DNA from: an uncultured Candidatus Saccharibacteria bacterium | Lineage (GTDB): Bacteria > Patescibacteriota > Minisyncoccia > Minisyncoccales > GWA2-38-27 | Direction of reading: 5' to 3' | DNA length: 64,000 nucleotides | Assembly: GCA_964447515.1 (NCBI GenBank) | Contig: CAYUSS010000004.1 | Location: forward strand, 532 to 64,531 | Notes under the pieces: generated by a model | What the model saw: the letters and a program-made list of their open reading frames with translations, nothing else | Databases searched by the model: none | Told to the model about the DNA's origin: nothing | Part shown: positions 10,504 through 44,406 of the stretch, in pieces | Position numbering within the stretch: position 1 is the stretch's first letter | How the letters are laid out: each line of letters begins with the position of its first letter | Program-made: the position numbers and the translations under genes

Positions 10504-11395
10504 GATGTCCTCTTAAAAATTCATTTATCTCCATTGGTTTTTTACTCTCCATTTGGAGTTTTTCAATAATTAAATAGCCCTTTCCGCATTTAACTGCAAA
10601 TTTATCTTTAGGAAATTTTTCAACTGCCTCAGCTTCTATAATCTTTATTCTTTTTCCTTTCCAAAAAAAGAAGCTTCCGGGCCAAGGATAAAAAGCCCTA
10701 ATTTGTCTTTCAATTTCTTGGACTGGCTTTGACCGGTTAATTTTTCCATCCTCTTTTTTTATGATTTTTGTATAAGTTGCTTTGGATTCGTCTTGGGGTT
10801 GGGGCTTGATTTCGCTATTTATCCATTTGGGGATTGTTTTAACTAATAATTCAATACCTAATTCAGCTAATTTTTTACTTAATTTTTCGTAAGTAATTTT
10901 GGTTATTGGGATTTCCCATTCTCGCTGAGCGAGAATGGGTCCGTAGTCTATCTTCTCATCCATTAAAATTATTGTTAGACCTGTTTCTTTGTCGCCATTT
11001 AAAATAGTTGTTTGGATAGGAGAAGGGCCTCTATATTTTGGTAAAAGAGAAGGGTGAATGTTTAGGCAGCCAAATTTTGGGATTTCTAAAATTTCTTTTG
11101 GCAAGATTTGCCTGTAGGCAGCTAAAATTATTAAATCTGGTTTGATACTTGATACTTGATACTTGATATTTGATACTTTTATAGGTTGTAAGAAAGGAAT
11201 TTCATATTTTTCAGCAATAATCTTTACCGGCGGGGGAGATAAAACTTGCTTCCTGCCAGCCGGTTTATCGGGAGCGGTGATAACCAAAATAGGCCTATAA
11301 TTATTTTTAATAAGTCCTTCTAAAATAATCGCCCCGAATTTTGGGGTTCCTAAAAAGACAATTTTAGGTTTTGTTATTTTTTGTTCATTGTTCAT
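10481..11395 (-). CDS. fmt: methionyl-tRNA formyltransferase (carries an in-frame 35-nt heptamer array)
   Basis: IVFLGTP.FG, NIHPSLLPKYRGPSPIQ. Start chosen at the ATGA overlap with the upstream stop (11395). Heptamer array at 11144-11178 encodes IKYQVSSIK. Confidence 0.9.
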   Translation of the reverse strand: MNNEQKITKPKIVFLGTPKFGAIILEGLIKNNYRPILVITAPDKPAGRKQVLSPPPVKIIAEKYEIPFLQPIKVSNIKYQVSSIKPDLIILAAYRQILPKEILEIPKFGCLNIHPSLLPKYRGPSPIQTTILNGDKETGLTIILMDEKIDYGPILAQREWEIPITKITYEKLSKKLAELGIELLVKTIPKWINSEIKPQPQDESKATYTKIIKKEDGKINRSKPVQEIERQIRAFYPWPGSFFFWKGKRIKIIEAEAVEKFPKDKFAVKCGKGYLIIEKLQMESKKPMEINEFLRGHHDFNPLL

Positions 11396-12066
11396 TTGAC
11401 AATTCGCCATTCAACATCCGATTTTTTGCCGGCAAATTCTAACCATTGGCCGCTCTCATCAATAACATACCATTTCTTCTTGGTCTCTGACCAAACCATT
11501 GGGTTCCCTTGAAAAAAAGGTTTTTTCACAATTTCTTTGGGCTTTAATCTATCTAATTCCAGCCATTTTTTAAAAACAGTTTCAATAGCATAGTCCAAAT
11601 CTCTTGATTTCGCCCATTTGGCAACCTTATCAATTGCTTGTTTAGCTTTTTCTATATTGCCGGCCAATTCCAAAAGTTGTTTGGCGGGTTTGGTATAACG
11701 GGAATAGATTATTTTTCTTTTTCTAGCGTTTCGTTTGATTTCGTCTAAACTTAATCCTTTGGTTTTAAAATAATAGGTAACAATCTGGCGAATGGCTGTT
11801 TCCTCTTTTAATGCTTTGTAATATTTAATTTTCCCGGTTTTTAAGTATTCTTCAATTTTCTTAGCAATGCTTTTACCCACTCCTTGAATTTCCTCAAGGC
11901 CTTTAAGACCTTTCTTTTTATAAATCTCGGCAACATCTTTTCCTAAACCCTTTAAAGAATCAGCAGCTTTTTTATAAGCTTTTGGCTTGAAAGCCACCCC
12001 TTTTATATTCAAATATTCTTCTATCTCGTATAATAATTTAGCAATTTTTTTATTCATATTTTTCAA
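11392..12066 (-). CDS. helix-hairpin-helix protein with a Pol X-like N-terminal domain; C-terminal half unknown
   Basis: The N-terminus NKKIAKLLYEIEEYL...FKPKAYKKAADSL...IQGVGKSIAKKIEEYLKTGK resembles the 8-kDa/HhH region of family X polymerases. No polymerase catalytic domain is present. Confidence 0.5.
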   Translation of the reverse strand: MKNMNKKIAKLLYEIEEYLNIKGVAFKPKAYKKAADSLKGLGKDVAEIYKKKGLKGLEEIQGVGKSIAKKIEEYLKTGKIKYYKALKEETAIRQIVTYYFKTKGLSLDEIKRNARKRKIIYSRYTKPAKQLLELAGNIEKAKQAIDKVAKWAKSRDLDYAIETVFKKWLELDRLKPKEIVKKPFFQGNPMVWSETKKKWYVIDESGQWLEFAGKKSDVEWRIVK

Positions 12067-12101
12067 CGCTAAATTTAATTCAAGAATATATATTTTATAT
12101 A

Positions 12102-12138
12102 CCTTAGCGAATCAAGGTTCTGCCGAAGGCAGGTTCTT
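12102..12138 (-). repeat. AAGAACC-hairpin-GAACCTTGATTCGCYAAGG element (3' of the AMMECR1 gene)
   Basis: The minus strand reads AAGAACCTGCCTTCGGCAGAACCTTGATTCGCTAAGG. Family members at 16403, 52594 and 57581. Confidence 0.75.
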
Positions 12139-12163
12139 ATAAATTATTAATTTTTTCTATTCT

Positions 12164-12760: not shown

Positions 12761-12770
12761 ATTTACTGGG

Positions 12771-13070
12771 TTATCTCAATACTTGTTTTATTCTTTCAGC
12801 TTCGTTTTCTACTACTTTGCCGTCGTATTCTCCGGCGTGGTCATGAGCTGTTTTATACACAGGTCTTTTCTGGTCTAAATGAAGGTTAAAAATTATTTCG
12901 TCTTTTTCTATATCAATTTTCAAATAAAGATGAAATCTGGGATACCCGCTTCTTTCCAATGGTCGAATAAAAGATAGTTCAAATTCTTTTTGTTGTAGAA
13001 AATAATAACCGGCTCTTCTCATTAGGGTTACAGGATTTTCTTTTAAATGATTTTTAATAATAAATTGCAT
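12771..13070 (-). CDS. conserved-looking 99-aa protein of unknown function embedded in the AMMECR1/LigB/radical-SAM cluster
   Basis: Clean ORF tightly packed between cluster genes. I recognise no motif in it. Confidence 0.45.
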   Translation of the reverse strand: MQFIIKNHLKENPVTLMRRAGYYFLQQKEFELSFIRPLERSGYPRFHLYLKIDIEKDEIIFNLHLDQKRPVYKTAHDHAGEYDGKVVENEAERIKQVLR

Positions 13071-13078
13071 AAAACATT

Positions 13079-13729
13079 TTATAATAATTTAAAGTTTACA
13101 ACTAAATATCCAACCCCGAAAGGACCTTGGTAAGATAAAATTTCTGGCAGCCAATTTATTCCCGCTTCTTCTAAAATTCCTAAAAGAAAAGAAAAAGAGC
13201 GCAAGCCGCATTCTCCAGCTTCTGGATACATTTCATCTAATTTTAGAAAATTTTCAATATCTTTTTCTTTTAAAAACTTAATCAGAGCTTGGTCAAATTT
13301 AGGGCCTTGAGGATTAAAACCGTAAGGACCATCTTCTTTTAAACAGTGGGAGAGATCGCCAGAAGCAATTAAGGCGTAGTTTAATTTACGAGACCCGACC
13401 TCGTAACGAGGTCGGGTCTCGTTTTTAAGTTTTTTGTAAACTTTTTTGCCTTTTTCAAAATAAGATTTTGGAGATTCTAATCCAGTTAAATACGTTTTTA
13501 TTTCTCCTTTAAAATCTTTTGCTAAAAAATAAAGAGGAACATTAAACCCCCAATCAAGATGAGGAGAAGAGATAATTATTGCGTCGGGATTTAGTTTCAT
13601 TAATTTTTCTCCCAAAAATTCCAGGCTTTTAATAGTTTTTTCAAGTTCCTCTCTATCTTTTTCTGAGCCGACTGAAGGTAAGAGGAGAGGGGGGTGAGGG
13701 GATATAGCTGCGAAAACAATTTTTGTCAT
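13079..13729 (-). CDS. class III extradiol dioxygenase-like (LigB/Memo-like) protein with an in-frame 35-nt perfect palindrome
   Basis: N-terminal ISPHPPLLLP and SGDLSH, with EAGECG near the C-terminus. The palindrome ACGAGACCCGACCTCGT-A-ACGAGGTCGGGTCTCGT at 13388-13422 encodes ..ETRPRYEVGSR.. Confidence 0.65.
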   Translation of the reverse strand: MTKIVFAAISPHPPLLLPSVGSEKDREELEKTIKSLEFLGEKLMKLNPDAIIISSPHLDWGFNVPLYFLAKDFKGEIKTYLTGLESPKSYFEKGKKVYKKLKNETRPRYEVGSRKLNYALIASGDLSHCLKEDGPYGFNPQGPKFDQALIKFLKEKDIENFLKLDEMYPEAGECGLRSFSFLLGILEEAGINWLPEILSYQGPFGVGYLVVNFKLL

Positions 13730-13778
13730 AATATTCTAATATAATATTCTAGTATTCTTGAGAACTTGAGAATATAAT

Positions 13779-15427: not shown

Positions 15428-15464
15428 ATTCAAGGTCGGGTGTTCAAGGTTGGGTCTTGAACAT
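15428..15464 (-). repeat. GTTCAAsACCCGACsTTGAAC repeat (inverted copy)
   Basis: ATTCAAGGTCGGGTGTTCAAGGTTGGGTCTTGAACAT is the reverse complement of the element found at 27875 and 31912. Confidence 0.7.
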
Positions 15465-15481: not shown

Positions 15482-16939
15482 ATGAAAATACATTTTATTG
15501 GAATTGGGGGTATAGGTGTTTCGGCTCTTGCTCAATATTATTTGGCAAAAGGTCATAAAGTCAGTGGTTCTGATTTAGTTTCATCTGAAACTACTGATTT
15601 TTTAAAGAAAAAAGGAGCTAAGCTTTTTATTGGAAATCATCAGGGAAAAAATCTGCCAAAAGATGTTGATTTAGTAATTTATAGTCCGGCAATTTCAGAA
15701 AGTAACCCCGAACTTCTAAAAGTTCGCAAGTTACAGGTTTTGAGTTACCCCCAGGCATTAGGAAAGCTAACAAAAGAATATTTTACAATCGCTGTTTCCG
15801 GAACTCACGGAAAGAGTACCACTACTGCAATGATTTCTTTGATTTTAATAAAGGCAGGGCTTGATCCTACGGTAATTATTGGCACTAAATTGAAAGAATT
15901 TGGTCAAACTAATTTTAGAATAGGAAAGAGTAAGTATCTTGTTATTGAGGCAGATGAATGGCAGGCCTCTTTTTTGAATTATTGGCCTCAGATTATTATT
16001 TTAACCAATATTGAAAGAGAACATTTGGATTACTATAAAAATTTAAATCATATTCTGAGAACTTACCAGAAATTTATCGGTCATTTGTCTAAAGATGGAG
16101 TATTAGTAGTGAATGGAGAAGACAAAAATATCTCAAAACTCAAATCGAAGCCTACGGCTCGTCTACGACAGCAGAACTCAAAACCACAACTCAAAACTCA
16201 AAACTATAGTTTAAAGCAAAAAGAGGCGGAGAAATTAAGGAAAATTTTGAAAGTGCCAGGCGAACATAATGTTTACAATGCCTTAGCTGCTTTGAGCGCG
16301 GCTCGGGCTTTGAAAATTCCAGATAAAATTTCATTTAAAGTGCTCTCAGAATATAAAGGCGCCTGGCGACGTTTTGAAATAGAAAAAGCAGAAATTAGCA
16401 ATAAGAACCTCTCGCTTCGCTCGAGAACCTTGAATGTTTTCCTCGCTATGCTCGGAAAGCCATTGTCTAAAAAGATTACCATTATTTCTGATTATGCTCA
16501 TCATCCAACCGAGATAGAAGCTACTTTAAGAGCTGTCAGAGAGAAATTTCTTTACCCGCCCAAATTTTCTGGAAGAAAATTTAGGCGGTCAGGTAAAAAA
16601 ATTTGGTGCATTTTTCAGCCTCATCAATATCAAAGAACATTTTATCTTTTTCAGGATTTTGTTAAAGTTTTTAGAAAAAACCCAATTGACAAATTGATTA
16701 TCACTGATATTTATGATGTAGCCGGCAGAGAAAAAAAGAAAACAAAAAAGAAAGTGAGTTCAAAAAAAATGGTTGAAGCAATTGACAGACCTCAAACAAT
16801 TTTTTTATCAAAAGAAAAAATAATAAATTATTTAAAAAGAAATTTAAAAGGCAGGGAAGTGGTAATAATTATGGGAGCAGGGGATATATACAAGTTGAGC
16901 GAGCGACTAGCAAGCGAAACCGAGCGCCCAAAGCATTGA
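15482..16939 (+). CDS. murC: UDP-N-acetylmuramate--L-alanine ligase, carrying three different repeat-derived in-frame inserts
   Basis: IHFIGIGGIGVSALA, GTHGKSTTT, DYAHHPTEI. Inserts at about 16138-16208, 16403-16433 and 16564-16599. Confidence 0.9.
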   Translation: MKIHFIGIGGIGVSALAQYYLAKGHKVSGSDLVSSETTDFLKKKGAKLFIGNHQGKNLPKDVDLVIYSPAISESNPELLKVRKLQVLSYPQALGKLTKEYFTIAVSGTHGKSTTTAMISLILIKAGLDPTVIIGTKLKEFGQTNFRIGKSKYLVIEADEWQASFLNYWPQIIILTNIEREHLDYYKNLNHILRTYQKFIGHLSKDGVLVVNGEDKNISKLKSKPTARLRQQNSKPQLKTQNYSLKQKEAEKLRKILKVPGEHNVYNALAALSAARALKIPDKISFKVLSEYKGAWRRFEIEKAEISNKNLSLRSRTLNVFLAMLGKPLSKKITIISDYAHHPTEIEATLRAVREKFLYPPKFSGRKFRRSGKKIWCIFQPHQYQRTFYLFQDFVKVFRKNPIDKLIITDIYDVAGREKKKTKKKVSSKKMVEAIDRPQTIFLSKEKIINYLKRNLKGREVVIIMGAGDIYKLSERLASETERPKH

Positions 16940-17299: not shown

Positions 17300-17424
17300 A
17301 GATAACCTTCCTCGTAGGCTTTTACTCTGTTATCAAATACAAAAGTTTGCTATTATGAATAAAAAAGAAATTGGAAATTGGGAAATCCTAATTTCAAGTT
17401 TTAAATTTCTAATTTCAAAAACGT

Positions 17425-18552
17425 ATGACCAAAACATCAAAAACAATTATTTGGCTTATGACAGCCATTATCATCATCGGGGGAATTTGGTATGGCGTGG
17501 GTAGGAAGCCGGCGGAAAAAGAAGTGATTAAAATCGGAGCAATTTTGCCATTGAGTGGAGCCGCTACTTCTCAAGGAGAAAGCGAGAGAAAAGCCATAGA
17601 AATGGCAGTTAAGAAGAAAAACGCCCAAGGTGGAATTGATGGTAGAAAAATAGAAGTAATATTTGAGGATGACGCTACATCAAACAGTCCTTCTAATGCT
17701 ACAGGAATTATTAAGAAGCTTATTTATATTGATAAAGTACAGTTTATTATTGGACCTGGAATGAGTTCAGAAATAGAAGCTGTAGCTCCAATAGTTAATC
17801 AAAAAAATATCGTTATGATAGCTTTTGGCGCTGTAACTTCTCCATTTTCCAGGTTTGGTAGAAATGTTTTTACTTCTTCTGCCACATTTGCCTTAGAAAG
17901 TTATAAAATGGCTGAATTTATCGGGAAACAGAATTTTGGAAAGATAGCTTTCATTTCCGTAAATGCTGAAGCAGGATTAGAAATTAAGAAAGTTCTAGAG
18001 GAAGAATTACCTAAATATAATAGCGAATTGATAAGTACTGAATTAATAAATCTCGGGATGATAGATTTTAAAACTAATCTCTTGAAAATAAAAGAACAAA
18101 ATCCAGATGCCCTTTATGTCTTTCATATTCCAGCATTGCTCGGGATAATTACTAAACAGACAAAAGAATTAAGCATAGAAGTCCCTATTTTGACTTTCCA
18201 CAATATTGAGGACCCCTCAGCAAAGACTACTGGGGGAGATTCTTTAGAAGGGGTAATCTATACGTCATCCGTTAGAAGCGAAATTGGTAAAAAATTCTTC
18301 ACAGATTTTGAGCAAGAATATGGTTCTGAACCAAATATTTTTTCTGACTCAGCTTATGATGCAGTAAATCTTATTATTGAAGCAATTGAAGCTAAAGGAT
18401 TAGAGATAGATAAAATTCGAGAATATTTAGAAAATATTAAAGATTACCAAGGAGCTACCGGAATCATTAGCTTTGACGAAAATAGAGACGTTAAACAAGA
18501 TTATATAATCAAAACAGTTAAAAACGGCCAGTTTGTGCCGTATGGAGAGTAA
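17425..18552 (+). CDS. branched-chain amino acid ABC transporter substrate-binding protein (Peripla_BP_6-like)
   Basis: N-terminal anchor, then IKIGAILPLSGAATSQGE typical of LivJ/K-like binding proteins. Operon context with livHMGF. Confidence 0.8.
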   Translation: MTKTSKTIIWLMTAIIIIGGIWYGVGRKPAEKEVIKIGAILPLSGAATSQGESERKAIEMAVKKKNAQGGIDGRKIEVIFEDDATSNSPSNATGIIKKLIYIDKVQFIIGPGMSSEIEAVAPIVNQKNIVMIAFGAVTSPFSRFGRNVFTSSATFALESYKMAEFIGKQNFGKIAFISVNAEAGLEIKKVLEEELPKYNSELISTELINLGMIDFKTNLLKIKEQNPDALYVFHIPALLGIITKQTKELSIEVPILTFHNIEDPSAKTTGGDSLEGVIYTSSVRSEIGKKFFTDFEQEYGSEPNIFSDSAYDAVNLIIEAIEAKGLEIDKIREYLENIKDYQGATGIISFDENRDVKQDYIIKTVKNGQFVPYGE

Positions 18553-24697: not shown

Positions 24698-26716
24698 ATG
24701 ATGATGAGAACAAAAATTTTCTTAATTTCTTTTATTTTAAGTTTAGCTTTCTGGTGGGGGATAAATAGTTTGGTAGAGAATTTAGAAGATTTTTTATTTT
24801 GGCAGGAAATATCTAAACAGCCGGGAATATTTACTGCCAAGGCAAGTCAACAAATTCCTAGAAACGAAGTAGAGAGATTAAGGTTTGAAAGACTACAAAC
24901 CGAATTAAAAAATTTAAAAATTGAGGCCAAAGCTGCAATTTCGGTTTTGATAAATGGTAATGGAGAGGAAAGAATTCTTTTTGGAAAAAATACTGACCAG
25001 AGATTATCAATTGCTAGTTTGACCAAATTAATGACCGCCCTTATTGTTCTGGAAAATTATGACCTTTCAAGAGAAATTACGATTTCTAAAGAAGCTATTA
25101 ACCAGCCGGGGGATTTTGGGAAATTAGAAGCAGGAAAGAATTTTCCGGTGAGATATTTACTTTATCCCTTATTAATAGAATCAAGCAATGATGCTGCTTT
25201 CTCTTTAGCCAATGATTACGAAGAGATGACAGAAGAAAAATTTGTTGAGTTGATGAATTTGGAAGCCCAAAAAATGAATCTGGAGAATACTTTTTTTGTT
25301 AATTCTACCGGTATTGACCCCAAGGAACCGGAAACCGAAATAAACAATGAGACGTTTAACGTCTCATGTGAGGGAAATTATTCAACTGCTGCTGATTTGG
25401 TTAAATTTACTAAAGAATTATTTAAAAAACCCTTAATTTGGGAAATTCTTTCTACCCCGGAATTTAATCTTTATGGACCAAAACTTATTAATACTAATGA
25501 GCTTTTAGAAGAATCTCTCGGTTGGTCGAACAGAATTATTGGAGGGAAAACCGGCGAAACCCCTCAAGCTAATGGTTGTTTTCTTTTAGTTCTTAAAACC
25601 CCTCAATCAGATTACTTAATAAATATAGTTTTGGGTTCAAACGACCGCTTTGGAGAAATGCGAAAATTATTAAATTGGCTGGAGAAAAAAGAAGAAGTAA
25701 ACCCCGTTAGAGATTCCGAGAGTAGAGAAGAAGCACAGAAAAAGGGTATCTCTAACGGGGCAAAAACTTTTGACCCGGCTTTATTGGAGTGGGAAGAGAT
25801 AACCTCTAATGCTCCCTGGTCTCCAAGAGACTCCCATGGTACTGTAGTTTTTCAAAATAAAATTTGGTTAATGGGAGGATTAAATGGAAATGGGTTTCAA
25901 GATAAAAATGGCAATGTTCCTTATTGGAGAGTACCTCATTATAGTGATGTTTGGTCTTCAAAAGACGGAAGAAATTGGCAGCTTGTTACTAAAAATGCTC
26001 CCTGGGGTAAAAAAAGGTCAATGCAAGCCATAGTTTTTAAAAATAAAATCTGGTTAATTGGGGGCTGGGGACCGGAAATTGGATATTCAAATGATATCTG
26101 GGTTACAGAAAATGGAATTGATTGGGAAAAGATAGAACCAAAAGGAGAATTACCGGCAGTGGAAGGAGACCAGTTAGTTGTTTTTGAAGACAAATTATGG
26201 TTAATTGGCGGAGTAAGATACGACGAAAGAAAGGAAAAAAATTATGTTTGGGTTTCTGAAGACGGCATTAATTGGACTGAAGCTACTGAAAGAGCGCCTT
26301 GGTCGCCGAGATGGGATCATACGGTAACCGTATTTAAAAATAAATTGTGGCTTATTGGCGGTATGAATTTAGAGGGAGAAATTTACCAGGATGTCTGGAG
26401 TTCTCAAGATGGGAAAAATTGGTTATTAGTTACCGATAATCCGCCTTGGCGGGGGAGACAAGGGCATGGCTCGGTAGTTTTTCAAAATAAAATTTGGATT
26501 ATTGGAAGACTTAATGGCAAAAGTACTGGTGGAGATAATGATGTTTGGTATTCAGAAGATGGTTATACTTGGGGAAAAACCCAAAAAAATGCTCCCTGGT
26601 TAGGCAGGGAAGATATTGGGGTTTTGGTCTTTAAAGATAAGATATGGGCATTAGGAGGAATGGATGGTAACTCGGAATGGAAAAATGATATTTGGTTTTC
26701 AATTTTCTCTCCTTAA
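24698..26716 (+). CDS. D-alanyl-D-alanine carboxypeptidase (S11) fused to a C-terminal Kelch-type beta-propeller
   Basis: SxxK SLTKLMT, SSND, and a KTG-like motif (GGKTGET). C-terminal half has about 6 repeats of W(S/G)PR..H..VVF.NK(I/L)WL(I/M)GG. The linker at 25701-25760 is a palindromic element. Confidence 0.75.
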   Translation: MMMRTKIFLISFILSLAFWWGINSLVENLEDFLFWQEISKQPGIFTAKASQQIPRNEVERLRFERLQTELKNLKIEAKAAISVLINGNGEERILFGKNTDQRLSIASLTKLMTALIVLENYDLSREITISKEAINQPGDFGKLEAGKNFPVRYLLYPLLIESSNDAAFSLANDYEEMTEEKFVELMNLEAQKMNLENTFFVNSTGIDPKEPETEINNETFNVSCEGNYSTAADLVKFTKELFKKPLIWEILSTPEFNLYGPKLINTNELLEESLGWSNRIIGGKTGETPQANGCFLLVLKTPQSDYLINIVLGSNDRFGEMRKLLNWLEKKEEVNPVRDSESREEAQKKGISNGAKTFDPALLEWEEITSNAPWSPRDSHGTVVFQNKIWLMGGLNGNGFQDKNGNVPYWRVPHYSDVWSSKDGRNWQLVTKNAPWGKKRSMQAIVFKNKIWLIGGWGPEIGYSNDIWVTENGIDWEKIEPKGELPAVEGDQLVVFEDKLWLIGGVRYDERKEKNYVWVSEDGINWTEATERAPWSPRWDHTVTVFKNKLWLIGGMNLEGEIYQDVWSSQDGKNWLLVTDNPPWRGRQGHGSVVFQNKIWIIGRLNGKSTGGDNDVWYSEDGYTWGKTQKNAPWLGREDIGVLVFKDKIWALGGMDGNSEWKNDIWFSIFSP

Positions 26717-26768: not shown

Positions 26769-27866
26769 ATGCCGGAAATTACCATAAATGTTATTAAAAT
26801 TTTTTTTCTGGGAGCAGTTGCTTTTATTTTAGCTTTTTGGTTAACTCCGATTTTAACCCATTTTTTATATAAACATAAACTCTGGCGTAAAGAAGTTAGA
26901 ACTAAATCAATAGATGGAAAAGAACTTCCTTTTTTTCAAAAATTTCATGGCAAAGGAGAAACTAATATCCCAAGGTTTGGAGGACTACTTATTTGGGGGA
27001 CTACTTTGATTTTAGCTATTTCTTTCTTTTTGCTTTCAAAGACTAATATCTGGTGGTTTCAAAGATTAAATTTTTTAAGCAGGTCCCAGACCTGGCTGCC
27101 TCTTTTTGCTTTGGTTATAGCTTCTTTGGTTGGATTATTAGATGATATTTTGCAAGTTTTTGGCTCGCCCTTCCAAGTTTTTTTTCGAAAAATTTGGGAG
27201 GGTAAAGGAAAATATATTGGCGGCGGCTTAAAATTAAGATATCGCCTAATTTTGGTTGCTTTAATTGGATTAATTGGTGGCTGGTGGTTTTATTTTAAAT
27301 TGGGCTATACTGCTATTCATATTCCAGCCAACGGCGACTTTTTAATTGGGGCTTGGTACATCCCTTTCTTTGTTCTGGTAATGCTCGCAACTTATAGCGG
27401 AGGAGTGATTGACGGCTTGGACGGCTTGGCTGGAGGGGCTTTTGCTTCAATTTTCGCTGCCTTTGCTGGAATTGCTTTATTCAAAGGACAAATTGATATC
27501 GCTGCTTTTTGTGTTGTAATTGTGGGAGCGATTTTGGCTTTTTTATGGTTTAATATCCCTCCAGCCAGATTTTATATGGGAGAAACAGGAATATTGGGAC
27601 TTTGCTGCGCTTTAACCGTAATAGCTTTTTTAACTAATTCTGTTTTGGTTTTGCCGATAATTGGGTTTTTATTGGTTATTGAATCTGGTTCAGTGATTCT
27701 TCAACTTCTTTCAAGAAAGATTCGTCATAAGAAACTTTTTCTGGCCGCTCCTATCCATCATCATTTTGAAGCCAAAGGCTGGCCTCATTATAAAATCACA
27801 ATGAGGTTTTGGGTTATCGGCGTTGTGATGGCGATAATAGGCGTTGCCATAAGATTATTAGGCTAA
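26769..27866 (+). CDS. mraY: phospho-N-acetylmuramoyl-pentapeptide transferase (carries an in-frame palindromic insert)
   Basis: Polytopic, with GLLDDILQVF and NIPPARFYMGETG. Insert at 27168-27202 encodes PFQVFFRKIWEG. Confidence 0.9.
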   Translation: MPEITINVIKIFFLGAVAFILAFWLTPILTHFLYKHKLWRKEVRTKSIDGKELPFFQKFHGKGETNIPRFGGLLIWGTTLILAISFFLLSKTNIWWFQRLNFLSRSQTWLPLFALVIASLVGLLDDILQVFGSPFQVFFRKIWEGKGKYIGGGLKLRYRLILVALIGLIGGWWFYFKLGYTAIHIPANGDFLIGAWYIPFFVLVMLATYSGGVIDGLDGLAGGAFASIFAAFAGIALFKGQIDIAAFCVVIVGAILAFLWFNIPPARFYMGETGILGLCCALTVIAFLTNSVLVLPIIGFLLVIESGSVILQLLSRKIRHKKLFLAAPIHHHFEAKGWPHYKITMRFWVIGVVMAIIGVAIRLLG

Positions 27867-27874: not shown

Positions 27875-27948
27875 ATGTTCAACACCCGACGTTGAACACC
27901 CGACCTTAAACACTTAAAAACGGCTCACTGCGTAGCGAGCCGTTTTGT
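27875..27948 (+). repeat. GTTCAAsACCCGACsTTGAACACCCGACCTTAAACA repeat plus terminator hairpin module (after mraY)
   Basis: ATGTTCAACACCCGACGTTGAACACCCGACCTTAAACA, then AAAAACGGCTCACT-GCGT-AGCGAGCCGTTTTG. The same module lies at 31912-31982. Confidence 0.75.
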
Positions 27949-28011: not shown

Positions 28012-29373
28012 ATGAAATTGTTCAAAGATAAAAAAGTAACCGTAATGGGACTGGGATTGCACGGCGGTGGAGCAGGAGTGGCTAAATTTTTCTCTAAGCA
28101 AGGGGCAAAAGTTTTAGTAACCGACCTTAAGACAAAAAAGCAATTAAGAGAATCTCTCCAGAAACTCAAAGACCTGCCTATAAAATTTGTCTTAGGCGGG
28201 CACCGAGAAGAGGATTTCATCAATACCGATTTAATTATTAAAAATCCGGCTGTTCCCAGCAACTCCCCTTATCTTAAAATTGCCAGAAAGCATGATATTC
28301 TTATAAAAACTGATGTCAGTATATTTTTTGACCTATGCCCAGCCCCAATTATCGGAGTTACCGGCACTAAAGGAAAATCAACTGTTGCCTTTCTTATCTA
28401 TCTTTTTTTAACAAGCAAATATCCAGATACAATTCTGGCCGGAAACATTGGCCTATCCCCCTTAGAAGTTTTTTCTAAAATTCAAAAATTTGGCAGCAGG
28501 GGCAAAGTGGTTTTAGAACTTTCCAGTTTTGAACTTGAAGATTTAAAAAAGAGTCCAAAAGTAGCTGTAATTACTACTATTTTTCCAGACCATTTAGACA
28601 GGTATAAGAATTTTAAAGATTATATCAGAGCAAAAAAATCAATTTTCAAATATCAGAACGAAAATGATATTTTGGTTTTAAATTATGGTAATCCTGAAGC
28701 ACGAAAGCTTGCCTCAGAGACTCGCTCCAAAGTTTATTTCTTTACCCCGTTAAATAGTTGCAAAGCAAATTTAACGGGGTTTAAGGATTCCAATGTTTCA
28801 GCTGCTCTTGCTGTTGCTAAAATTTTCAAAATTCCTAAAAAAAATATTGGAAAGGTTCTTTCTAATTTCAAAGGCCTTCCTCATAGGCAAGAACTAATTG
28901 CTACCAAGAAAGGAAAGAAATATATTAACGATGCCACCGCTACCACCCCTCAATCAGTGATATTAGCAATAAATACATTTAAAAAGAGGTTTCCTGGTTC
29001 TAAAATTATTCTTATTGCTGGCGGTTTGGATAAAAATTTAAAGTATAAAGGTCTAGCCGAAGAGATTCAAAAAAAAATAGATTGTCTTATTCTTTTGCCA
29101 GGTACTGCTTCTGATAAAATTAGAAAAGAGTTAAAGAGTTTTACCCCGTTAGAGATTACGGGAAAGGAAAGAAAACACAGATTACACAAATCTCTAACGG
29201 GGTTTAAAATATATCCTGTTAATTCAATGAATCAAGCAGTAAAAAAGGGTTCAAATTTAGCTAAAAAAGGTGACCTTGTTTTGCTTTCTCCTGGAGCCGC
29301 GAGTTTCAACTTATTTAAAAATGAATTTGATAGGGGAGAGCAATTTCTCAAAGCAGTAAAAAAACTCAAATAG
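28012..29373 (+). CDS. murD: UDP-N-acetylmuramoylalanine--D-glutamate ligase (two in-frame palindromic inserts)
   Basis: VMGLGLHGGG, GVTGTKGKST, GLPHRQE, NDATATTP. Inserts at 28744-28780 and 29153-29213. Confidence 0.9.
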   Translation: MKLFKDKKVTVMGLGLHGGGAGVAKFFSKQGAKVLVTDLKTKKQLRESLQKLKDLPIKFVLGGHREEDFINTDLIIKNPAVPSNSPYLKIARKHDILIKTDVSIFFDLCPAPIIGVTGTKGKSTVAFLIYLFLTSKYPDTILAGNIGLSPLEVFSKIQKFGSRGKVVLELSSFELEDLKKSPKVAVITTIFPDHLDRYKNFKDYIRAKKSIFKYQNENDILVLNYGNPEARKLASETRSKVYFFTPLNSCKANLTGFKDSNVSAALAVAKIFKIPKKNIGKVLSNFKGLPHRQELIATKKGKKYINDATATTPQSVILAINTFKKRFPGSKIILIAGGLDKNLKYKGLAEEIQKKIDCLILLPGTASDKIRKELKSFTPLEITGKERKHRLHKSLTGFKIYPVNSMNQAVKKGSNLAKKGDLVLLSPGAASFNLFKNEFDRGEQFLKAVKKLK

Positions 29374-31911: not shown

Positions 31912-32014
31912 ATGTTCAAGACCCGACCTTGAACACCCGACCTTAAACAGTAAAAACGGCTCGCTCTCGTGAGCCGTTTTGCCTGTCCCGCACCGAGCGA
32001 AGCTCGGTGCGGGG
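31912..32014 (+). repeat. GTTCAAsACCCGAC repeat plus two terminator-like hairpins (after murG)
   Basis: ATGTTCAAGACCCGACCTTGAACACCCGACCTTAAACA, then AAAAACGGCTCGCT-CTCG-TGAGCCGTTTTG, then CCCGCACCGAGC-GAA-GCTCGGTGCGGG. Confidence 0.75.
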
Positions 32015-36132: not shown

Positions 36133-37634
36133 AAATATTTATTGCTGTTTTTTGGTTTTTTATTTTCATAAAATTGCTCTTTTTTTGGGTCTGGCTTTGG
36201 CAATTAAAAGAATATCGTTTAGGAAGATTCAGGGCCCACTTTGGAACTCAAAAAATAAAAAAAATAATTTTTAGTTTACATGGTATTAGATATCCTAAAT
36301 TGACCCAAAAGACCTTTATTATTTTGGTCTCTGGCATATTGATTGGATTTTTAATTTTGTTTGAGCTTTTTTCTTTACCCTCCCAAGTTTTGTTTAGCAA
36401 AATTTGGGATGGTAAACCAGAATATTTGTTTTATCTTTTGCTTCTGATTTTAATTATTTTAGCTCCAATAATTTTTTCTCTTTTAGTTTTATTTTTTCAA
36501 ATCCCTGCCTCTATTTTAATAAAGAGAATTTTAGAAAAAGCAAAAGAAAAAAGAGAAGAATTTAAAGACCTTTTAGTTATTGGCATTACCGGGAGTTATG
36601 GTAAAACTTCAACTAAAGAATTTTTAGCCACTATTTTAGAAGAAAAGTTCAAAATTCTCAAAACCCCTGAACACCAGAATACTGATCCAGGAATTGCTCG
36701 ATGTGTTTTAGATAACTTAACTTCCGAGCATCAAATTTTTATAGTGGAAATGGCTGCCTATAAATTAGGGGAAATAAAGCCACCCTGCCGGATGGTTCAA
36801 CCTAAAATTGGCATTTTAACCGGTATAAATGAGCAACATCTGGCAACCTTTGGTTCCCGGGAAAATATTATTGATACGAAATTTGAGCTGATAGAGAGTT
36901 TGCCCGAAAACGGAATTGCGATTTTTAATGGCAATAATAAGTATTGTTTTGAACTTTACAAAAAAGCCAAAACAACCAGAAAGCCAGATAACATTTTTCT
37001 GACCACGACCGGAAAAATGTTATCAACAGATATATGGGCAGAAGATATTAAAGTTGAAAAAGAATTTATTTCCTTTAAAGTTAATTCTGAGGGCGGAGAT
37101 TCGGCCAATTTTAGAGTAAATTTATTAGGCAGGCAAAATATTGAAAATATTTTGTTAGCTGTTTGCTGCGCCAAAGAATTAGGAATGAGATTAGAAGAGA
37201 TTGCCGCAGCTTGCCGGAAAATCAGACCAAAACAAGGAACAGCCCAGCTTAAAAAATCTAAGCAGAATTTAAATATTATTGATGCTACTTATTCGGCAAA
37301 CCCTGATGGAGTGATTGCTGATTTGGAACATCTAAAAAATTGGGAAGGCAAAAAAGCAATTGTAATGCCCTGTTTAATTGAGTTGGGAAAAGCCGGTCCA
37401 GAGATTCACAAAAAAATCGGCAAAAAAATCGGCCAGGTTTGCGATTTAGCCCTAATCACTACTAGAGATTACTTTCAAGAAATAAAAAAAGGAGCAATTG
37501 AAACTGGACTAAAGGGAAAAAATATTTTGTTTATTAAAAACCCAAAAGAAATTATTGAAAAATTAAATATTTTTGGCGGAGAGAATGATATAGTGCTCTT
37601 AGAGAGTAGAGTGCCAAAACAATTAATAAAATGA
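36129..37634 (+). CDS. murF: MurF-like Mur ligase (UDP-MurNAc-tripeptide--D-Ala-D-Ala ligase) with an N-terminal membrane domain of about 130 aa
   Basis: GITGSYGKTSTKE P-loop and the general Mur ligase layout. The N-terminus has about 4 TM helices and contains the palindromic insert at 36377-36413. Confidence 0.7.
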   Translation: MKIFIAVFWFFIFIKLLFFWVWLWQLKEYRLGRFRAHFGTQKIKKIIFSLHGIRYPKLTQKTFIILVSGILIGFLILFELFSLPSQVLFSKIWDGKPEYLFYLLLLILIILAPIIFSLLVLFFQIPASILIKRILEKAKEKREEFKDLLVIGITGSYGKTSTKEFLATILEEKFKILKTPEHQNTDPGIARCVLDNLTSEHQIFIVEMAAYKLGEIKPPCRMVQPKIGILTGINEQHLATFGSRENIIDTKFELIESLPENGIAIFNGNNKYCFELYKKAKTTRKPDNIFLTTTGKMLSTDIWAEDIKVEKEFISFKVNSEGGDSANFRVNLLGRQNIENILLAVCCAKELGMRLEEIAAACRKIRPKQGTAQLKKSKQNLNIIDATYSANPDGVIADLEHLKNWEGKKAIVMPCLIELGKAGPEIHKKIGKKIGQVCDLALITTRDYFQEIKKGAIETGLKGKNILFIKNPKEIIEKLNIFGGENDIVLLESRVPKQLIK

Positions 37635-38927: not shown

Positions 38928-39977
38928 ATGGAAATAAAAGAAATAAATAATAAAGAGGTTTGGGAGAATTTTCTTTTGGAATCTCAAGAGAAAACTTTTT
39001 TAGATTCTTGGAATTGGGGTCAGTTTCAGAAAATGATGGGTAATAAAATTTGGCGATTCGGTGTGTTTGAGAGCGACCAACTGATTTCAGTAGCTTTAGT
39101 GATAAAAATCAGAGCCAAAAGAGGGACTTTTTTGTTTGTGCCTCACGGACCAGTAGTAAAGTATCAAGTATCAAGTATCAAGTATCAAGTATTGGAAACA
39201 TTATTAGGGGAAGTTAGAAAAACAGCTAAAAGCGAAAAAGCGGGTTTCCTAAGGATTGCACCGATTTGGAGAAGAAATAGAGAAGATATTATTTTTTTTA
39301 AAAAACTTGGTTTTAAAAATGCCCCTATTCATATCCATCCAGAAGTAACCTGGGAATTGAATATCACTCCCTCAGAAGAAGAGCTTTTAATGAATATGCG
39401 AAAAACCACTCGCTATTTAATAAGGCAGGGGCTTAAAAACAAAGCTCTTGAAATTGTCAAAAGCCAGAATATTGAGGACCTGAAAATTTTTAATGAAATT
39501 TATCAAGAGACAGCTGCTCGCCATAGTTTTGTTCCATTTTCTTTAGAATATTTAAGAAATCAATTTTCGGCCTTTAATCCTTCTCAACAAATATCTATTT
39601 TTTTGGCTAAGTATAAAGAGAAAGTTATTTCTGGGGCAATTATTGTTTTTTGGCAAAACATTGCTTTTTATCATCACAGTGCTTCATTATCAAAGTATGG
39701 GAAAATCCCGGTTTCTTATCTTTTACAATGGGAGATAATAAAAGAGGCAAAAAGACGGGGTTGTAGTCGCTATAATTTCTGGGGAATAGCTCCGGAGGTC
39801 AGAGATAAATCTCAACTATCAAAGTCAAAGCATCCCTGGGTAGGTTTAACCTTATTTAAAATGGGCTTTGGCGGCTGTAGGAAAGAATATATTAAGACCC
39901 AGGATTTGCCCTTTTCCTTATTTTACTGGCTGACTTACATTTTTGAAAAATTGAGAAAAATTAAAAGAGGATTGTGA
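38928..39977 (+). CDS. FemAB-family peptidoglycan bridge-forming peptidyltransferase (carries an in-frame 35-nt heptamer array)
   Basis: FLDSWNWGQFQ N-terminus and the two-GNAT-like length typical of FemX/MurM proteins. Array 39160-39194 encodes KYQVSSIKYQV. Confidence 0.7.
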   Translation: MEIKEINNKEVWENFLLESQEKTFLDSWNWGQFQKMMGNKIWRFGVFESDQLISVALVIKIRAKRGTFLFVPHGPVVKYQVSSIKYQVLETLLGEVRKTAKSEKAGFLRIAPIWRRNREDIIFFKKLGFKNAPIHIHPEVTWELNITPSEEELLMNMRKTTRYLIRQGLKNKALEIVKSQNIEDLKIFNEIYQETAARHSFVPFSLEYLRNQFSAFNPSQQISIFLAKYKEKVISGAIIVFWQNIAFYHHSASLSKYGKIPVSYLLQWEIIKEAKRRGCSRYNFWGIAPEVRDKSQLSKSKHPWVGLTLFKMGFGGCRKEYIKTQDLPFSLFYWLTYIFEKLRKIKRGL

Positions 39978-41017: not shown

Positions 41018-41040
41018 ACACGGGTCGGACCCGTGTTTTT
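41018..41040. terminator. bidirectional terminator between convergent genes
   Basis: AAAAAACACGGGTC-GG-ACCCGTGTTTTTTT. Confidence 0.75.
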
Positions 41041-42804: not shown

Positions 42805-42810
42805 ATTTTT

Positions 42811-44406
42811 TTATAATTTATTTATTTTATAGAAATGAATCCCATTTTTTTCCTGGACTTCCCCGGAAGAGAACTCCTGGAAGAGTTTAGAAAATAAATC
42901 CTTGTCGTATTGCAGAGGGACGATAACTGTCTCTTTATTTATTTTAATCTGGTTTATATTTTCTGGCAATAAATAAATAGCTTGTGGCTCTGGATATTTT
43001 GTTCTTTCAATGAACATTGTAGTTTGGGCCGGCATTGGAATGCCGTTCGGCCAGGGTACAGGGACTCCTGATTGATTTACAATTACATATTTTTGAACAT
43101 CGTCGGGCAAAGAATTTAGGTATTTTCCAATGGCGACATAGTTTTCAGCGAAGGCTCCTTTCAATTCCGGTCTTTTAGCCCATTGGAAAAAGTATTTATC
43201 AAATTGAGCGTAAGCGATAGATAAAAGAATAATTGATAGACACAAATAAAGCGCGATTGTCTGATATTTCGTTTTAAAAAATCTTTTTATTTTTTTATAT
43301 AGCCAGAAAGCCCCAAAAGCGGCAAAAATATAGACGGACGGGATTACCCCAATAACTCGCAGTGAATGAGGAATTCCCTCATAGCTTAAAACTCCAGGTA
43401 AAAGCATTATGAGAAACCATGAAATTAAAAACCCAAAGGGAAAAAATTCCGAAAGTATACTTCTATGTAATAGTATGCTTTTATAATTACGATAAAGAGA
43501 GTAGATAAAACCAATTAGAAAAAATATTCCGATTGGCCAAAGAAGTTGGGGAGAGCCGGAAAAATTATGACGCCAGTTTCCGTCGCCGTAAAAATTAAAC
43601 ATCCCTAAGTGGAGAATGAGCGATTTACCTAAATTATAAATTGGATTTCCTTGGGAAAGAATTGACACTCCGGCTGCCCGTCCAAAAAATTGGGCGGGGT
43701 TTTCAAGAAAATAAATTCCAATTGGAAGAGCGACAATAAAAATAGTAAGCAGTAAGTATAAAGTATAACATATAAAAGTTTTTTGCTGTTTTTGTTTTTT
43801 ATAAATTAGCCACCAGCTTATTAAAGCTATTATTAGTAATAAGACTACAAATCTATAAGCAATATAAGTATAAAATCCAAGCCCTAAAAATAATCCGGAA
43901 ATTAGTAAATTTAAATACTTCTTAAGACGAAATCCTTTAAATAAAAAATAAAAACCAAAAGTTAAGAGGAAAGGGACTAAAATTGCCCGAAATTCAATTC
44001 GTGAAAAATTTACATGCCAAAAAGAAACAGCCAAGAAAAAAGAAGAGAGTAGAGCGATGTATTTAGTATTTAGTATTTTGTATTTAGTATTTTGGAAGAT
44101 TTCCTGAGTTAATAGATATAACCCCAAAACCGTTAGAATTCCAATTATTGCTGGGACAATTCTTATTGAGAAAATACTTACCCCGAAAATAGAAAAAGAT
44201 AAAGCGATTAAGTTAATAAAAAGACCTTCTCGGCCATTGTTTTCAGGATAAAAAACCATGCCTGGACCAGAAATCGCTTCATTTCCATTAATTGCCTCAT
44301 CAGGATAAAGCCCCGGAGGAATATTATTCAATTGCCACAATCTAAAGAAACAAGCAATTCCCAAAACAATCAATAAGATTATTAAAATCTTATATTTTTT
44401 ATTCAT
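42811..44406 (-). CDS. GT39/ArnT-like glycosyltransferase (carries an in-frame 35-nt heptamer array)
   Basis: 531 aa, polytopic, with loop motif PDEAINGNEA. Array 44058-44092 encodes NTKYKILNTKY. Confidence 0.7.
   Translation of the reverse strand: MNKKYKILIILLIVLGIACFFRLWQLNNIPPGLYPDEAINGNEAISGPGMVFYPENNGREGLFINLIALSFSIFGVSIFSIRIVPAIIGILTVLGLYLLTQEIFQNTKYKILNTKYIALLSSFFLAVSFWHVNFSRIEFRAILVPFLLTFGFYFLFKGFRLKKYLNLLISGLFLGLGFYTYIAYRFVVLLLIIALISWWLIYKKQKQQKTFICYTLYLLLTIFIVALPIGIYFLENPAQFFGRAAGVSILSQGNPIYNLGKSLILHLGMFNFYGDGNWRHNFSGSPQLLWPIGIFFLIGFIYSLYRNYKSILLHRSILSEFFPFGFLISWFLIMLLPGVLSYEGIPHSLRVIGVIPSVYIFAAFGAFWLYKKIKRFFKTKYQTIALYLCLSIILLSIAYAQFDKYFFQWAKRPELKGAFAENYVAIGKYLNSLPDDVQKYVIVNQSGVPVPWPNGIPMPAQTTMFIERTKYPEPQAIYLLPENINQIKINKETVIVPLQYDKDLFSKLFQEFSSGEVQEKNGIHFYKINKL

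What the first reader, a model, noticed from the sequence alone, without database searches (positions are those of the whole stretch)
11144..44092. Five-unit (35-nt) heptamer arrays inside fmt, the FemAB-like gene and a GT39 gene
The fmt array is at 11144-11178 (GATACTT x5; on the coding strand AAGTATC). The FemAB-like array is at 39160-39194 (AGTATCA x5). The GT39 array is at 44058-44092 ((A/T)GTATTT x5). The fmt and FemAB-like copies carry the same repeat and give the same peptide (KYQVSSIK) in unrelated enzymes. A heptamer unit is not a multiple of 3, so gain or loss of one unit by slipped-strand mispairing would frameshift the host gene. That is the architecture of contingency (phase-variable) loci, although here it occurs in housekeeping genes.
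Basis: partly seen in the sequence, partly recalled or inferred. Interest (0 to 1): 0.6.

Follow-up and report, generated by a model that had tools for sequence, protein, structure and literature searches.

The report
Translated five-unit heptamer repeats in enzymes
Three enzymes of an uncultured ultra-small (CPR/Patescibacteria) bacterium each carry a run of about five 7-base repeats that is read through and translated; related bacteria have such runs at the same protein positions with different repeat units, and one relative has lost a single unit and broken its gene, but I found no evidence that this is a regulated on/off switch.

Summary
The three arrays are real. There are 3 period-7 arrays in the window against 0 in 30 shuffles. 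All three lie in frame inside fmt, a FemAB-family gene and a PMT_2 (GT39-type) gene of a Nealsonbacteria-like CPR bacterium.

They are not private insertions. Orthologues at 59-78% identity carry heptamer arrays at the same sites and mostly at the same length, but with different units. Unit divergence tracks host-gene divergence, which indicates in situ concerted evolution. More distant FemAB orthologues have ordinary sequence of equal length at that site.

In this clade the arrays cluster sharply at 30-39 nt (about 5 units), and 33 of 35 are coding. Where a unit contains a stop codon, a variant base sits exactly where TAA would be in frame, so the arrays are translated.

Slippage does occur. 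A relative's fmt array has 4 units instead of 5, on a 99.8%-identical background, and this splits the gene. The window's own fmt array is identical in four independent assemblies, and none of about 59 FemAB orthologues is frameshifted. The known heptanucleotide switch NeuO shows 3-53 repeats with 66% of genomes OFF.

Verdict: these are slippage-prone, translated coding microsatellites held in tolerant protein segments. The contingency architecture is present, but an adaptive switch is not shown.

The parts
11142..11178 (-). fmt site-1 heptamer array. Coding strand reads AAGTATC AAaTATC AAGTATC AAGTATC AAGTATC AA and encodes VSNIKYQVSSIK (Fmt residues about 79-90), between the conserved QP and KPDL motifs.
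   Evidence: The same site and length carries AAGTATC/T in L001, AAAAATT in L207 and AAGTTnn in L208. The low-confidence structure model places a helix here.
39159..39194 (+). FemAB-family array. (AAGTATC)x4 plus AAGTATT, encoding KYQVSSIKYQV (residues 78-88). The last unit overlaps the conserved Val-Leu codons.
   Evidence: The AlphaFold2 model (pLDDT 92.9) places it in loop 78-81 plus the start of helix 82-102.
44058..44092 (-). PMT_2/GT39-type gene, site A array. Coding strand is (AAATACW)x5, encoding NTKYKILNTKY. The T-to-A variants sit exactly where TAA would be in frame.
   Evidence: L143 has a (CGAATTA)n array giving RITNYELRITN at the same site, while other orthologues are non-periodic there.
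43738..43781 (-). PMT_2/GT39-type gene, site B. A degenerate period-7 segment (+ strand AAGTATA-type) encoding FICYTLYLLLTIFI in a hydrophobic stretch.
   Evidence: It is the positional orthologue of the (CTATTTT)5 arrays that encode FLFSIFYFLFSIF in L139, L152, L158, L183 and L199.
10901..10914 (-). fmt site 2, a two-unit remnant (AAATCCC AATAACC) immediately 3' of a conserved coding hairpin at 10915-10939.
   Evidence: L002 has 5 units here (+21 nt, in frame). L207 and L208 have (AATTTTC)4. L001 has an AAGTATC-type array. L210-212 have (AATATCA)5 and L209 has 4.
11381..11396 (-). Short AATGAAC repeat (2.3 units) at the fmt start and N-terminus (MNNEQ).
   Evidence: It has 3 units in L002/L003 and appears as AACAAAG x4 in L208.
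16170..16223 (+). Degenerate AACTCAA-type period-7 segment in the MurC-like Mur ligase gene (15482-16939).
   Evidence: It is the positional orthologue of (AATTTTC)4, which encodes FNFQFSIFN, in the L207 Mur ligase.
47076..47125 (.). Intergenic (dnaK-dnaJ) TTTCCAA/AATTTCC period-7 array of about 3-6 imperfect units.
   Evidence: The same unit forms coding arrays in L162 (FemAB site) and L135.
17352..17420 (.). Intergenic degenerate period-7 segments (GAAATTG / AATTTCA) upstream of ORF 17425-18552.

Best explanation
These are heptanucleotide simple-sequence repeats (coding microsatellites). They belong to a lineage-wide set that occupies structurally tolerant segments of conserved enzymes in Nealsonbacteria-like Patescibacteria: a surface helix or loop, N-termini, and a hydrophobic stretch.

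What is shown. Each array is translated into a filler peptide with a 7-residue period. Each sits at a fixed position and in a fixed register against conserved flanking codons. Its unit sequence changes between lineages, roughly in step with the divergence of the host gene. Single-unit slips occur and give frameshifted null or split alleles.

What is inferred. Each array is continually re-homogenised in place by slipped-strand misalignment or conversion between neighbouring units, which would explain how the unit drifts while periodicity and length are kept. Only states that preserve the reading frame (n, n plus or minus 3 units) persist, and selection against frameshift load probably caps the arrays at about 5 units.

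The arrays are therefore mutationally fragile sites tolerated inside genes. They have not been shown to be a programmed switch.
For: Statistical reality and in-frame translation.

Positional conservation with different units:
- fmt sites 1 and 2.
- FemAB site, where eight or more different units (AAGTATC, AAATCAA, AAGTTAA, AAATCTC, AAAACTC, AATTTCC, AAGTTAC, AATAACC) occupy the same 39-nt slot in the same register.
- PMT_2 sites A and B.
- MurC site.

Other lines of evidence:
- More distant FemAB orthologues (below 58% identity) have non-periodic sequence of equal length, e.g. VIIEGLEIKDKKE.
- Unit distance in fixed register rises with protein distance (Spearman 0.44, Mantel p about 0.014).
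- Arrays are far more homogeneous (lag-7 match 0.9-1.0) than divergence of 24-40% at protein level would allow without ongoing homogenisation (inference).
- Frame quantisation is visible: 2 versus 5 units (+21 nt) at fmt site 2 in the window versus L002, and +7 aa in P0153 versus P0136.
- A natural slip from 5 to 4 units splits fmt.
- Stop-avoiding variant bases sit exactly at in-frame TAA positions in the window PMT_2 array and in the L139 FemAB array.
- The FemAB array peptide lies in a loop and the start of a helix in a confident model.
- Literature: heptanucleotides are the most abundant long-SSR class in many bacteria, and a polymerase-slippage origin has been proposed (Mrazek 2007, as summarised in PMC4679880 and PMC4692102).
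Against: - The sharp length mode is not predicted by simple slippage and is only partly explained by frame quantisation. There are 35 arrays at 30-39 nt, 6 at 24-29 nt and none longer.
- At FemAB and at fmt site 1 the arrays replace ordinary sequence rather than add to it. Pure expansion does not explain this.
- The same unit recurs at unrelated loci of one genome more often than expected. Identical units were seen in 3 of 25 within-locus pairs against 16 of 539 between-locus pairs (p = 0.047). In the (AAGTATC)3 scan, 8 genomes supplied two to four of the 119 stretches each. This hints at an inter-locus process that in situ slippage alone does not provide.
- Homogenisation without length change is inferred, not observed.
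Confidence: 0.55

Rival explanations
1. True contingency loci. The arrays are maintained because reversible slips of one unit switch Fmt and cell-envelope enzymes (FemAB, PMT_2, MurC) OFF and ON, giving population heterogeneity, for example against phage or host defences.
For: - A heptamer unit in an ORF means that a slip of one unit truncates each protein early.
- A natural one-unit loss is the consensus allele of one sample in a related species (L209).
- Three of the four host genes act on the cell envelope, a typical class for phase variation.
- Ongoing homogenisation of arrays is what repeated slip cycles would produce.
- A precedent exists for translated heptanucleotide phase variation: neuO (PMC13001214).
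Against: - Only about 5 units are present, against 3-53 in neuO.
- The window's fmt array is invariant in 4 assemblies.
- The 90%-identity protein clusters of the window's three proteins contain no length variants.
- No OFF alleles occur among about 59 FemAB loci.
- One OFF contig stands against at least 18 contigs that carry the intact P0078 protein.
- Identical array-bearing P0116 is on at least 24 contigs.
- The arrays are internal, at positions conserved over deep divergence, not at the 5' ends of accessory genes.
Confidence: 0.15
2. A dispersed, element-like family. Arrays of about 33-36 nt made of a genome-specific heptamer are written or copied into many genes, either by ectopic gene conversion or by an unknown enzyme. 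This would be analogous to in-frame selfish DNA such as Rickettsia palindromic elements.
For: - The length class is narrow at 30-39 nt, unlike arrays in other phyla.
- The same unit occurs in unrelated genes of one genome: window fmt and FemAB; L207 fmt and Mur ligase; L143.
- Several metagenome-assembled genomes have (AAGTATC)n on 2-4 contigs.
- AAGTATC is not a generally favoured unit: 4 viral hits against 8-11 for same-composition scrambles.
- Replacement occurs without length change.
- The clade also carries recently mobile in-frame palindromic inserts.
Against: - Unit identity at the FemAB site follows host phylogeny and stays in one register anchored on conserved codons.
- Several different units coexist in one genome: L139 has four.
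- No inverted termini or target duplications are seen.
- No associated enzyme gene was identified in the window (only partly examined).
- The within-genome sharing statistic in the relatives is weak (p = 0.047).
Confidence: 0.2
3. Protein-level function. The repeated peptide (KYQVSSIK and its like) is selected as a structural or interaction motif, and the DNA periodicity is a by-product.
For: - A 7-nt repeat yields a 7-residue period, which suits amphipathic helices.
- The arrays lie in a helix or at a helix start.
Against: - The periodicity is 7 nt, not 21 nt, and is exact at synonymous positions.
- Peptides at one site differ radically between orthologues, for example KYQVSSI, KSQISNL, KLKVKSE and NFQFPIS.
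- At PMT_2 site A, array-bearing and array-free orthologues share no sequence motif (NTKYKILNTKY in the window, RITNYELRITN in L143, SQCNEERARY in L139), and at site B the hydrophobic FLFSIFYFLFSIF of relatives aligns with a different sequence, FICYTLYLLLTIFI, in the window.
- The same kind of array also occurs intergenically.
Confidence: 0.03

Closest known systems
Heptanucleotide long simple-sequence repeats of bacteria: cyanobacterial STRR, Xanthomonas/Nostoc GGGNATC, Beggiatoaceae/Bacteroidetes TAACTGA (Mrazek 2007 as cited in PMC4679880 and PMC4692102)
   Same: Tandem 7-nt units are over-represented relative to other periods. Unit families are genome-specific, typical sets are short (2-6 copies), and a slippage origin has been proposed.
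   Different: Those repeats are described as mainly intergenic, often just upstream of start codons, and non-triplet units are said to be disfavoured in coding DNA. Here 33 of 35 arrays are inside long ORFs, are translated, are conserved in position across a clade, and are confined to about 5 units.
neuO of E. coli K1, a phase-variable O-acetyltransferase with a translated (AAGACTC)n tract (PMC13001214)
   Same: A heptanucleotide tract lies inside a coding sequence and is translated. The reading frame is kept only for copy numbers in one residue class modulo 3, and slippage changes the copy number.
   Different: The neuO tract is at the 5' end of a phage-borne accessory gene. It ranges from 3 to 53 units and is OFF in 65.6% of genomes. 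The arrays here are internal, have about 5 units, are essentially always in frame, and sit in core genes.
Rickettsia palindromic elements (RPEs), selfish DNA inserted in frame in protein-coding genes (PMC10969869)
   Same: Short repeated DNA is tolerated and translated inside unrelated conserved enzymes of a reduced-genome bacterium, at structurally permissive positions.
   Different: RPEs are palindromic elements of about 150 bp (as reported in PMC10969869) that add length. The arrays here are 30-39-nt tandem heptamers, not palindromic, and often replace sequence of equal length. The clade does also have RPE-like palindromic inserts; see the items noticed in passing.

Membership tests
Simple-sequence contingency (phase-variable) locus | Tandem repeat inside an ORF (or promoter) whose unit is not a multiple of 3, so that a change of one unit shifts the frame | tested here: met
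   7-nt units in three ORFs. Simulated alleles with one unit more or fewer stop at 90-129 aa.
Simple-sequence contingency (phase-variable) locus | Repeat-number polymorphism among closely related strains or within populations | tested here: inconclusive
   The window's fmt array is identical in 4 assemblies at 99.9-100% identity, and the 90% clusters contain no length variants. One 5-to-4 unit variant was found in a related species. Raw reads were not available.
Simple-sequence contingency (phase-variable) locus | Both ON and OFF alleles common among isolates | tested here: not met
   None of about 59 FemAB orthologous loci is frameshifted. One OFF contig stands against at least 18 intact contigs for the P0078 protein. 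In neuO, 65.6% of genomes are OFF.
Simple-sequence contingency (phase-variable) locus | Measured high, reversible switching rate | not testable with these tools
   This needs culture or reporter assays, or deep read data.
Bacterial heptanucleotide long SSRs (STRR-type) | Tandem 7-nt units, at least 3 copies, over-represented relative to other unit lengths | tested here: met
   3 arrays against 0 in shuffles. There is a lag-7 excess. In relatives there are 60 period-7 arrays of at least 3.4 units and none at periods 8, 10, 11 or 13.
Bacterial heptanucleotide long SSRs (STRR-type) | Predominantly intergenic location | tested here: not met
   33 of 35 arrays of 30-39 nt lie in open frames of at least 150 aa.
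neuO-type translated heptanucleotide variable-number tandem repeat | Tract translated into heptad peptides | tested here: met
   ORFs run through the arrays, peptides with a 7-aa period are present in orthologues, and variant bases avoid in-frame stops. There is no proteomic proof.
neuO-type translated heptanucleotide variable-number tandem repeat | 5'-terminal tract with a wide copy-number range | tested here: not met
   The arrays are internal (residues about 78-115) and are confined to 30-39 nt in this clade.
In-frame selfish inserts (RPE-like / MITE-like) | Extra sequence relative to orthologues that lack the element | tested here: not met
   FemAB and fmt site 1 are the same length as array-free orthologues. 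Extra length is seen only at fmt site 2 in L002 and L208.
In-frame selfish inserts (RPE-like / MITE-like) | Terminal inverted repeats or palindromic structure | tested here: not met
   The arrays are direct tandem repeats, and no inverted arms flank them.

The most novel reading that the evidence does not exclude
In Nealsonbacteria-like CPR bacteria, a length-quantised array of about 35 nt (five units) made of a genome-specific heptamer is actively written over tolerant segments of core enzymes. The writing would be done either by inter-locus conversion or by an unknown repeat-writing activity. The resulting arrays would serve as low-frequency reversible OFF switches for translation-initiation and cell-wall genes. 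This would be a new class of coding-sequence element, not passive microsatellites.
Probability: 0.12. Interest if true: 0.85.

Novelty: new variant of a known kind. Interest (0 to 1): 0.6.

Why it matters
Non-triplet microsatellites are generally said to be excluded from essential coding sequence. Here a whole clade of reduced-genome bacteria keeps them inside core enzymes (Fmt, FemAB, MurC, a PMT-type glycosyltransferase). They sit at conserved positions, are translated, and evolve in concert.

This gives a natural system for three questions. How do repeats homogenise without changing length? How much 'filler' sequence do protein folds tolerate? Do ultra-small symbionts, in which genetics is very difficult, exploit or merely suffer slippage-driven gene inactivation?

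There is also a practical consequence. These arrays, and the palindromic inserts found with them, explain hypervariable insertions in CPR protein alignments. They can also cause split-gene calls and possibly assembly chimeras.

Tried and rejected
- Chance or composition as an explanation: rejected by shuffles and by comparison with other periods.
- Private insertion: rejected, because orthologues have arrays at the same sites.
Copy-number heterogeneity in the window's own species could therefore only be judged from four assemblies of fmt.
- The first within-genome versus between-genome unit test was invalid, because clustering on shared 40-mers merged different genomes. It was redone per locus and the signal is only weak.
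- AAGTATC as a universally favoured unit: not supported. Viral contigs gave 4 hits against 8, 10 and 11 for same-composition scrambles.
- Further candidate split alleles came to nothing. P0246 and P0287 are merely cut by contig ends. In P0279/L213 the FemAB array runs into unrelated sequence, probably an assembly chimera through a second identical array.
- The AlphaFold2 model of Fmt was of low confidence (pLDDT 59.8), so only its secondary structure at the array is used.
- Mrazek 2007 and Elhai 2008 are not held in the paper library. They are cited only through papers that summarise them, or from memory where marked as such.
- No paper linking CPR/Patescibacteria with heptamer repeats was found. 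This does not prove that none exists.
- Rfam found only two tRNAs in the window.
Full report
**1. Observation**

On the coding strands they read as follows.
- fmt: AAGTATC AAaTATC AAGTATC AAGTATC AAGTATC AA
- FemAB-family gene: (AAGTATC)x4 followed by AAGTATT
- PMT_2 gene: (AAATACW)x5

The hosts are ORF 10481-11410(-) (Formyl_trans_N and _C), ORF 38928-39977(+) (FemAB family) and ORF 42811-44406(-) (PMT_2/PMT, i.e. GT39-type). All three ORFs read straight through the arrays. fmt and FemAB do share the peptide KYQVSSIK.

The window has 34.5% G+C. Three period-7 arrays of at least 4 units were found against none in 30 shuffles, and most other periods gave none. After masking the three arrays, a weaker excess of degenerate period-7 segments remains: 8 regions against 0-1 at control lags. 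These include the fmt start, a MurC-like gene, a second site in the PMT_2 gene, and two intergenic spacers.

The organism is a Patescibacteria (CPR) bacterium. Its closest named relatives are Candidatus Nealsonbacteria.

**2. The arrays are positional features of a clade, not private insertions**

*fmt.* In an alignment of 30 Fmt orthologues, the 14 residues between the conserved QP and KPDL motifs have the same length almost everywhere. They are typically 7-residue periodic, for example KIKNLELKIKNLK and ILNLKSLILNLK. At DNA level this site reads AAGTATC/T x5 in L001 (about 75% identity), AAAAATT x5 in L207 and AAGTTnn x5 in L208.

A second fmt site, just after a conserved coding hairpin, varies between genomes:
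- 2 degenerate units in the window
- 5 units (+21 nt, in frame) in L002
- (AATTTTC)4 in L207 and L208
- an AAGTATC-type array in L001
- (AATATCA)5 in L210-L212

*FemAB.* Among 120 FemAB orthologues, the 13 residues between PHGP and (I/V)LExLL are hypervariable but nearly always 7-periodic. DNA from about 59 metagenomic loci shows at least eight different units in the same 39-nt slot and the same register. More distant orthologues (below 58% identity) have ordinary, non-periodic sequence of the same length. None is frameshifted.

*PMT_2.* Site A carries an array in the window and in L143 but not in other orthologues. Site B carries (CTATTTT)5 in five relatives, where the window has a decayed version.

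*MurC.* The MurC site is shared with L207.

**3. Dynamics**

In fixed register, the consensus units at the FemAB site become more different as the rest of the protein diverges. The mean is 2.0, 3.4 and 4.6 differences out of 7 for increasing distance classes (Spearman 0.44, Mantel p about 0.014). The units are therefore inherited and drift in place. They are not re-drawn at random.

Individual arrays nevertheless remain 80-100% periodic at divergences where unconstrained positions should be scrambled. From this I infer continuing homogenisation between neighbouring units.

The 3'-most unit overlaps conserved codons: Val/Ile-Leu in FemAB, and the Lys of KPDL in Fmt. This suggests a selected 'master' copy at the boundary (inference).

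Reading-frame quantisation is directly visible in three comparisons:
- 2 versus 5 units at fmt site 2
- +7 residues in P0153 versus P0136
- a 4-unit allele that is out of frame

Where the unit itself contains a stop codon in one frame, a variant base sits exactly where TAA would be in frame. This holds for AAATACT in the window PMT_2 array and AAGTTAA in the L139 FemAB array. It shows translation and purifying selection.

**4. Length**

In the window plus Nealsonbacteria-type relatives, the counts of period-7 arrays by length are as follows.

| Length | Arrays |
|---|---|
| 21-23 nt (tail of a background that falls steadily from 17 nt) | 19 |
| 24-29 nt | 6 |
| 30-39 nt | 35, at 12 or more distinct sites |
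| over 39 nt | 0 |

Of the 35 arrays in the 30-39 nt class, 33 lie in open frames of at least 150 aa.

Arrays in other phyla were sampled from the loci brought in by the (AAGTATC)3 scan. They fall off monotonically and reach more than 200 nt.

In this clade the arrays have a characteristic size of about 5 units. Frame quantisation explains why neighbouring sizes are missing at any one site. It does not explain why the mode is 5. I regard this as unexplained. The candidates are a stability ceiling set by frameshift load, or a mechanism with an intrinsic tract length.

**5. Does slippage happen, and is it a switch?**

The protein clusters of fmt relatives contained one split gene. L209 (ENA ERZ27293400) has (AATATCA)4 where L210-L212 have (AATATCA)5. 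The rest of 4.9 kb is 99.8% identical to L211, with 4 mismatches. fmt is split into 182-aa and 153-aa ORFs. The contig comes from a k=141 assembly, so repeat collapse is unlikely (inference). This is direct evidence for one-unit slippage giving a frameshifted allele that reached consensus frequency in one sample.

Several observations point the other way:
- The intact protein is on at least 18 contigs.
- The array-bearing P0116 is identical on at least 24 contigs.
- The window's own fmt array is identical in four other assemblies, two of which differ by SNPs elsewhere.
- The 90% clusters of the window's three proteins hold no length variants.
- Among 217 kb of pairwise alignments at 97% identity or better between related loci, this was the only heptamer-array indel.

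The one well-studied heptanucleotide switch, neuO, shows 3-53 repeats with 65.6% of genomes OFF (PMC13001214). The arrays here are therefore fragile, but they behave as essentially fixed features.

**6. Same unit in different genes**

Within a locus, identical units at different sites occur in 3 of 25 pairs, against 16 of 539 pairs between loci (p = 0.047). The three cases are window fmt and FemAB, L143, and L207 fmt and Mur ligase.

The truncated genome scan for (AAGTATC)3 returned 119 stretches from many phyla. Eight genomes contributed two to four stretches each, including a Saccharibacteria genome with four contigs and a Paceibacterota genome with two. That is far more clustering than random placement among genomes would give.

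AAGTATC is not a generally favoured unit. Viral contigs hold 4 such arrays against 8-11 for same-composition scrambles.

There is thus some genome-level unit preference or inter-locus spread that pure in situ slippage does not explain. I keep an element-like or gene-conversion reading as the main rival.

**7. Structure**

A confident AlphaFold2 model of the FemAB-family protein (pLDDT 92.9) places the array peptide (residues 77-88) in a loop and the first two turns of a long helix. The Fmt model is poor (pLDDT 59.8), but it predicts a helix at the array. A 7-nt repeat necessarily encodes a 7-residue period, which is compatible with an amphipathic helix. This may be why such arrays are tolerated there (inference).

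**8. Comparison with known systems and novelty**

Heptanucleotide repeats are a known, abundant SSR class in bacteria. They are described as mainly intergenic, and non-triplet units are reported to be disfavoured in coding DNA (PMC4679880, PMC4692102). Translated heptanucleotide tracts are known from neuO. In-frame selfish DNA is known from Rickettsia RPEs (PMC10969869).

I found no description in the searchable library of the combination seen here: position-conserved, five-unit, translated arrays inside core enzymes across a CPR clade, evolving in concert, with a natural slip allele. I rate it a new variant of a known kind.

**9. Verdict**

My best explanation is slippage-prone, translated coding microsatellites that are maintained in tolerant protein segments by in-place homogenisation (confidence 0.55). 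The main open points are the five-unit size mode, the length-preserving replacement of ordinary sequence, and the sharing of units within genomes.

Noticed in passing
window 10915-10939 (- strand, inside fmt): An 11-bp stem with a 3-nt loop (CCCATTCTCGC-TCA-GCGAGAATGGG) encodes GPILAQREW. It is conserved in L002, L207 and L208, with two compensatory double changes, one of them pairing a synonymous change with a non-synonymous one. Heptamer units begin immediately 3' of it in every genome examined.
   Followed up: partly
L212 (ENA ERZ27293393), within efp, versus L209-L211: A 72-nt palindromic insertion (24 codons, in frame) lies in the EF-P gene of one population (214 aa against 190 aa). It is absent from strains that are otherwise 99-100% identical. 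This looks like a recently mobile RPE/MITE-like element in an essential gene.
   Followed up: partly
window 25692-25760 and 29134-29203: Two copies of a hairpin element of about 65 nt (arms CCCCGTTAGAGAT / ATCTCTAACGGGG) lie inside two different long ORFs (24698-26716 and 28012-29373).
   Followed up: no
window 16546-16583, 27157-27215, 28736-28773, 36367-36425: A second palindromic family (CCCAAnTTTT...AAAATTTGGG) lies inside ORFs, including two Mur ligase genes. The window's MurC-like protein is 46-69 aa longer than its L207 and L208 orthologues because of such inserts.
   Followed up: partly
window 13388-13422; 15429-15455; 27875-27919; 31912-31956: A perfect 17-nt palindrome ACGAGACCCGACCTCGT lies inside ORF 13079-13729. 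Tandem GTTGAACACCCGAC motifs, sharing the CCCGACC core, follow several genes.
   Followed up: no
L208 fmt site 2; FemAB orthologues P0172, P0147, P0140 and P0175: GC-rich inserts of about 33 nt sit inside or next to heptamer arrays in different genes and genomes. L208 has CCTGGACGCGAAGCGGACTCCCCGGAGGGTTGC, encoding SPGREADSPEGC; FemAB P0172 has PGRLKEDSPEGC. This is reminiscent, from memory, of small dispersed repeats that insert into heptamer arrays in Nostoc.
   Followed up: no
L210 versus L209, L211 and L212, upstream of fmt: A 14-nt tandem repeat TATATTGTCTGCCC differs by two copies (28 nt) between near-identical strains.
   Followed up: no
window 654, 1632, 3141, 7010, 50164, 62227: A recurring intergenic cassette consists of a GC-stem terminator-like hairpin (AATCGCC...GGCGATTTTTT) followed directly by a TAnAAT -10-like box.
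   Followed up: no
L213 (Logan SRR6051235) 320-365: A FemAB gene runs through an (AAATGTC)n array straight into unrelated coding sequence. This is probably an assembly chimera (short k-mer assembly assumed) through a second identical array elsewhere in that genome.
   Followed up: partly
window 59539-59619: A CAACCC / 18-nt tandem repeat (about 4-13 copies) lies inside ORF 58396-60045.
   Followed up: no
L126 and L129, FemAB array site: In some orthologues the array slot is occupied instead by a GC-rich hairpin-like sequence (GCCTCCGC...GGCGGGC, encoding ASAKATAG).
   Followed up: no
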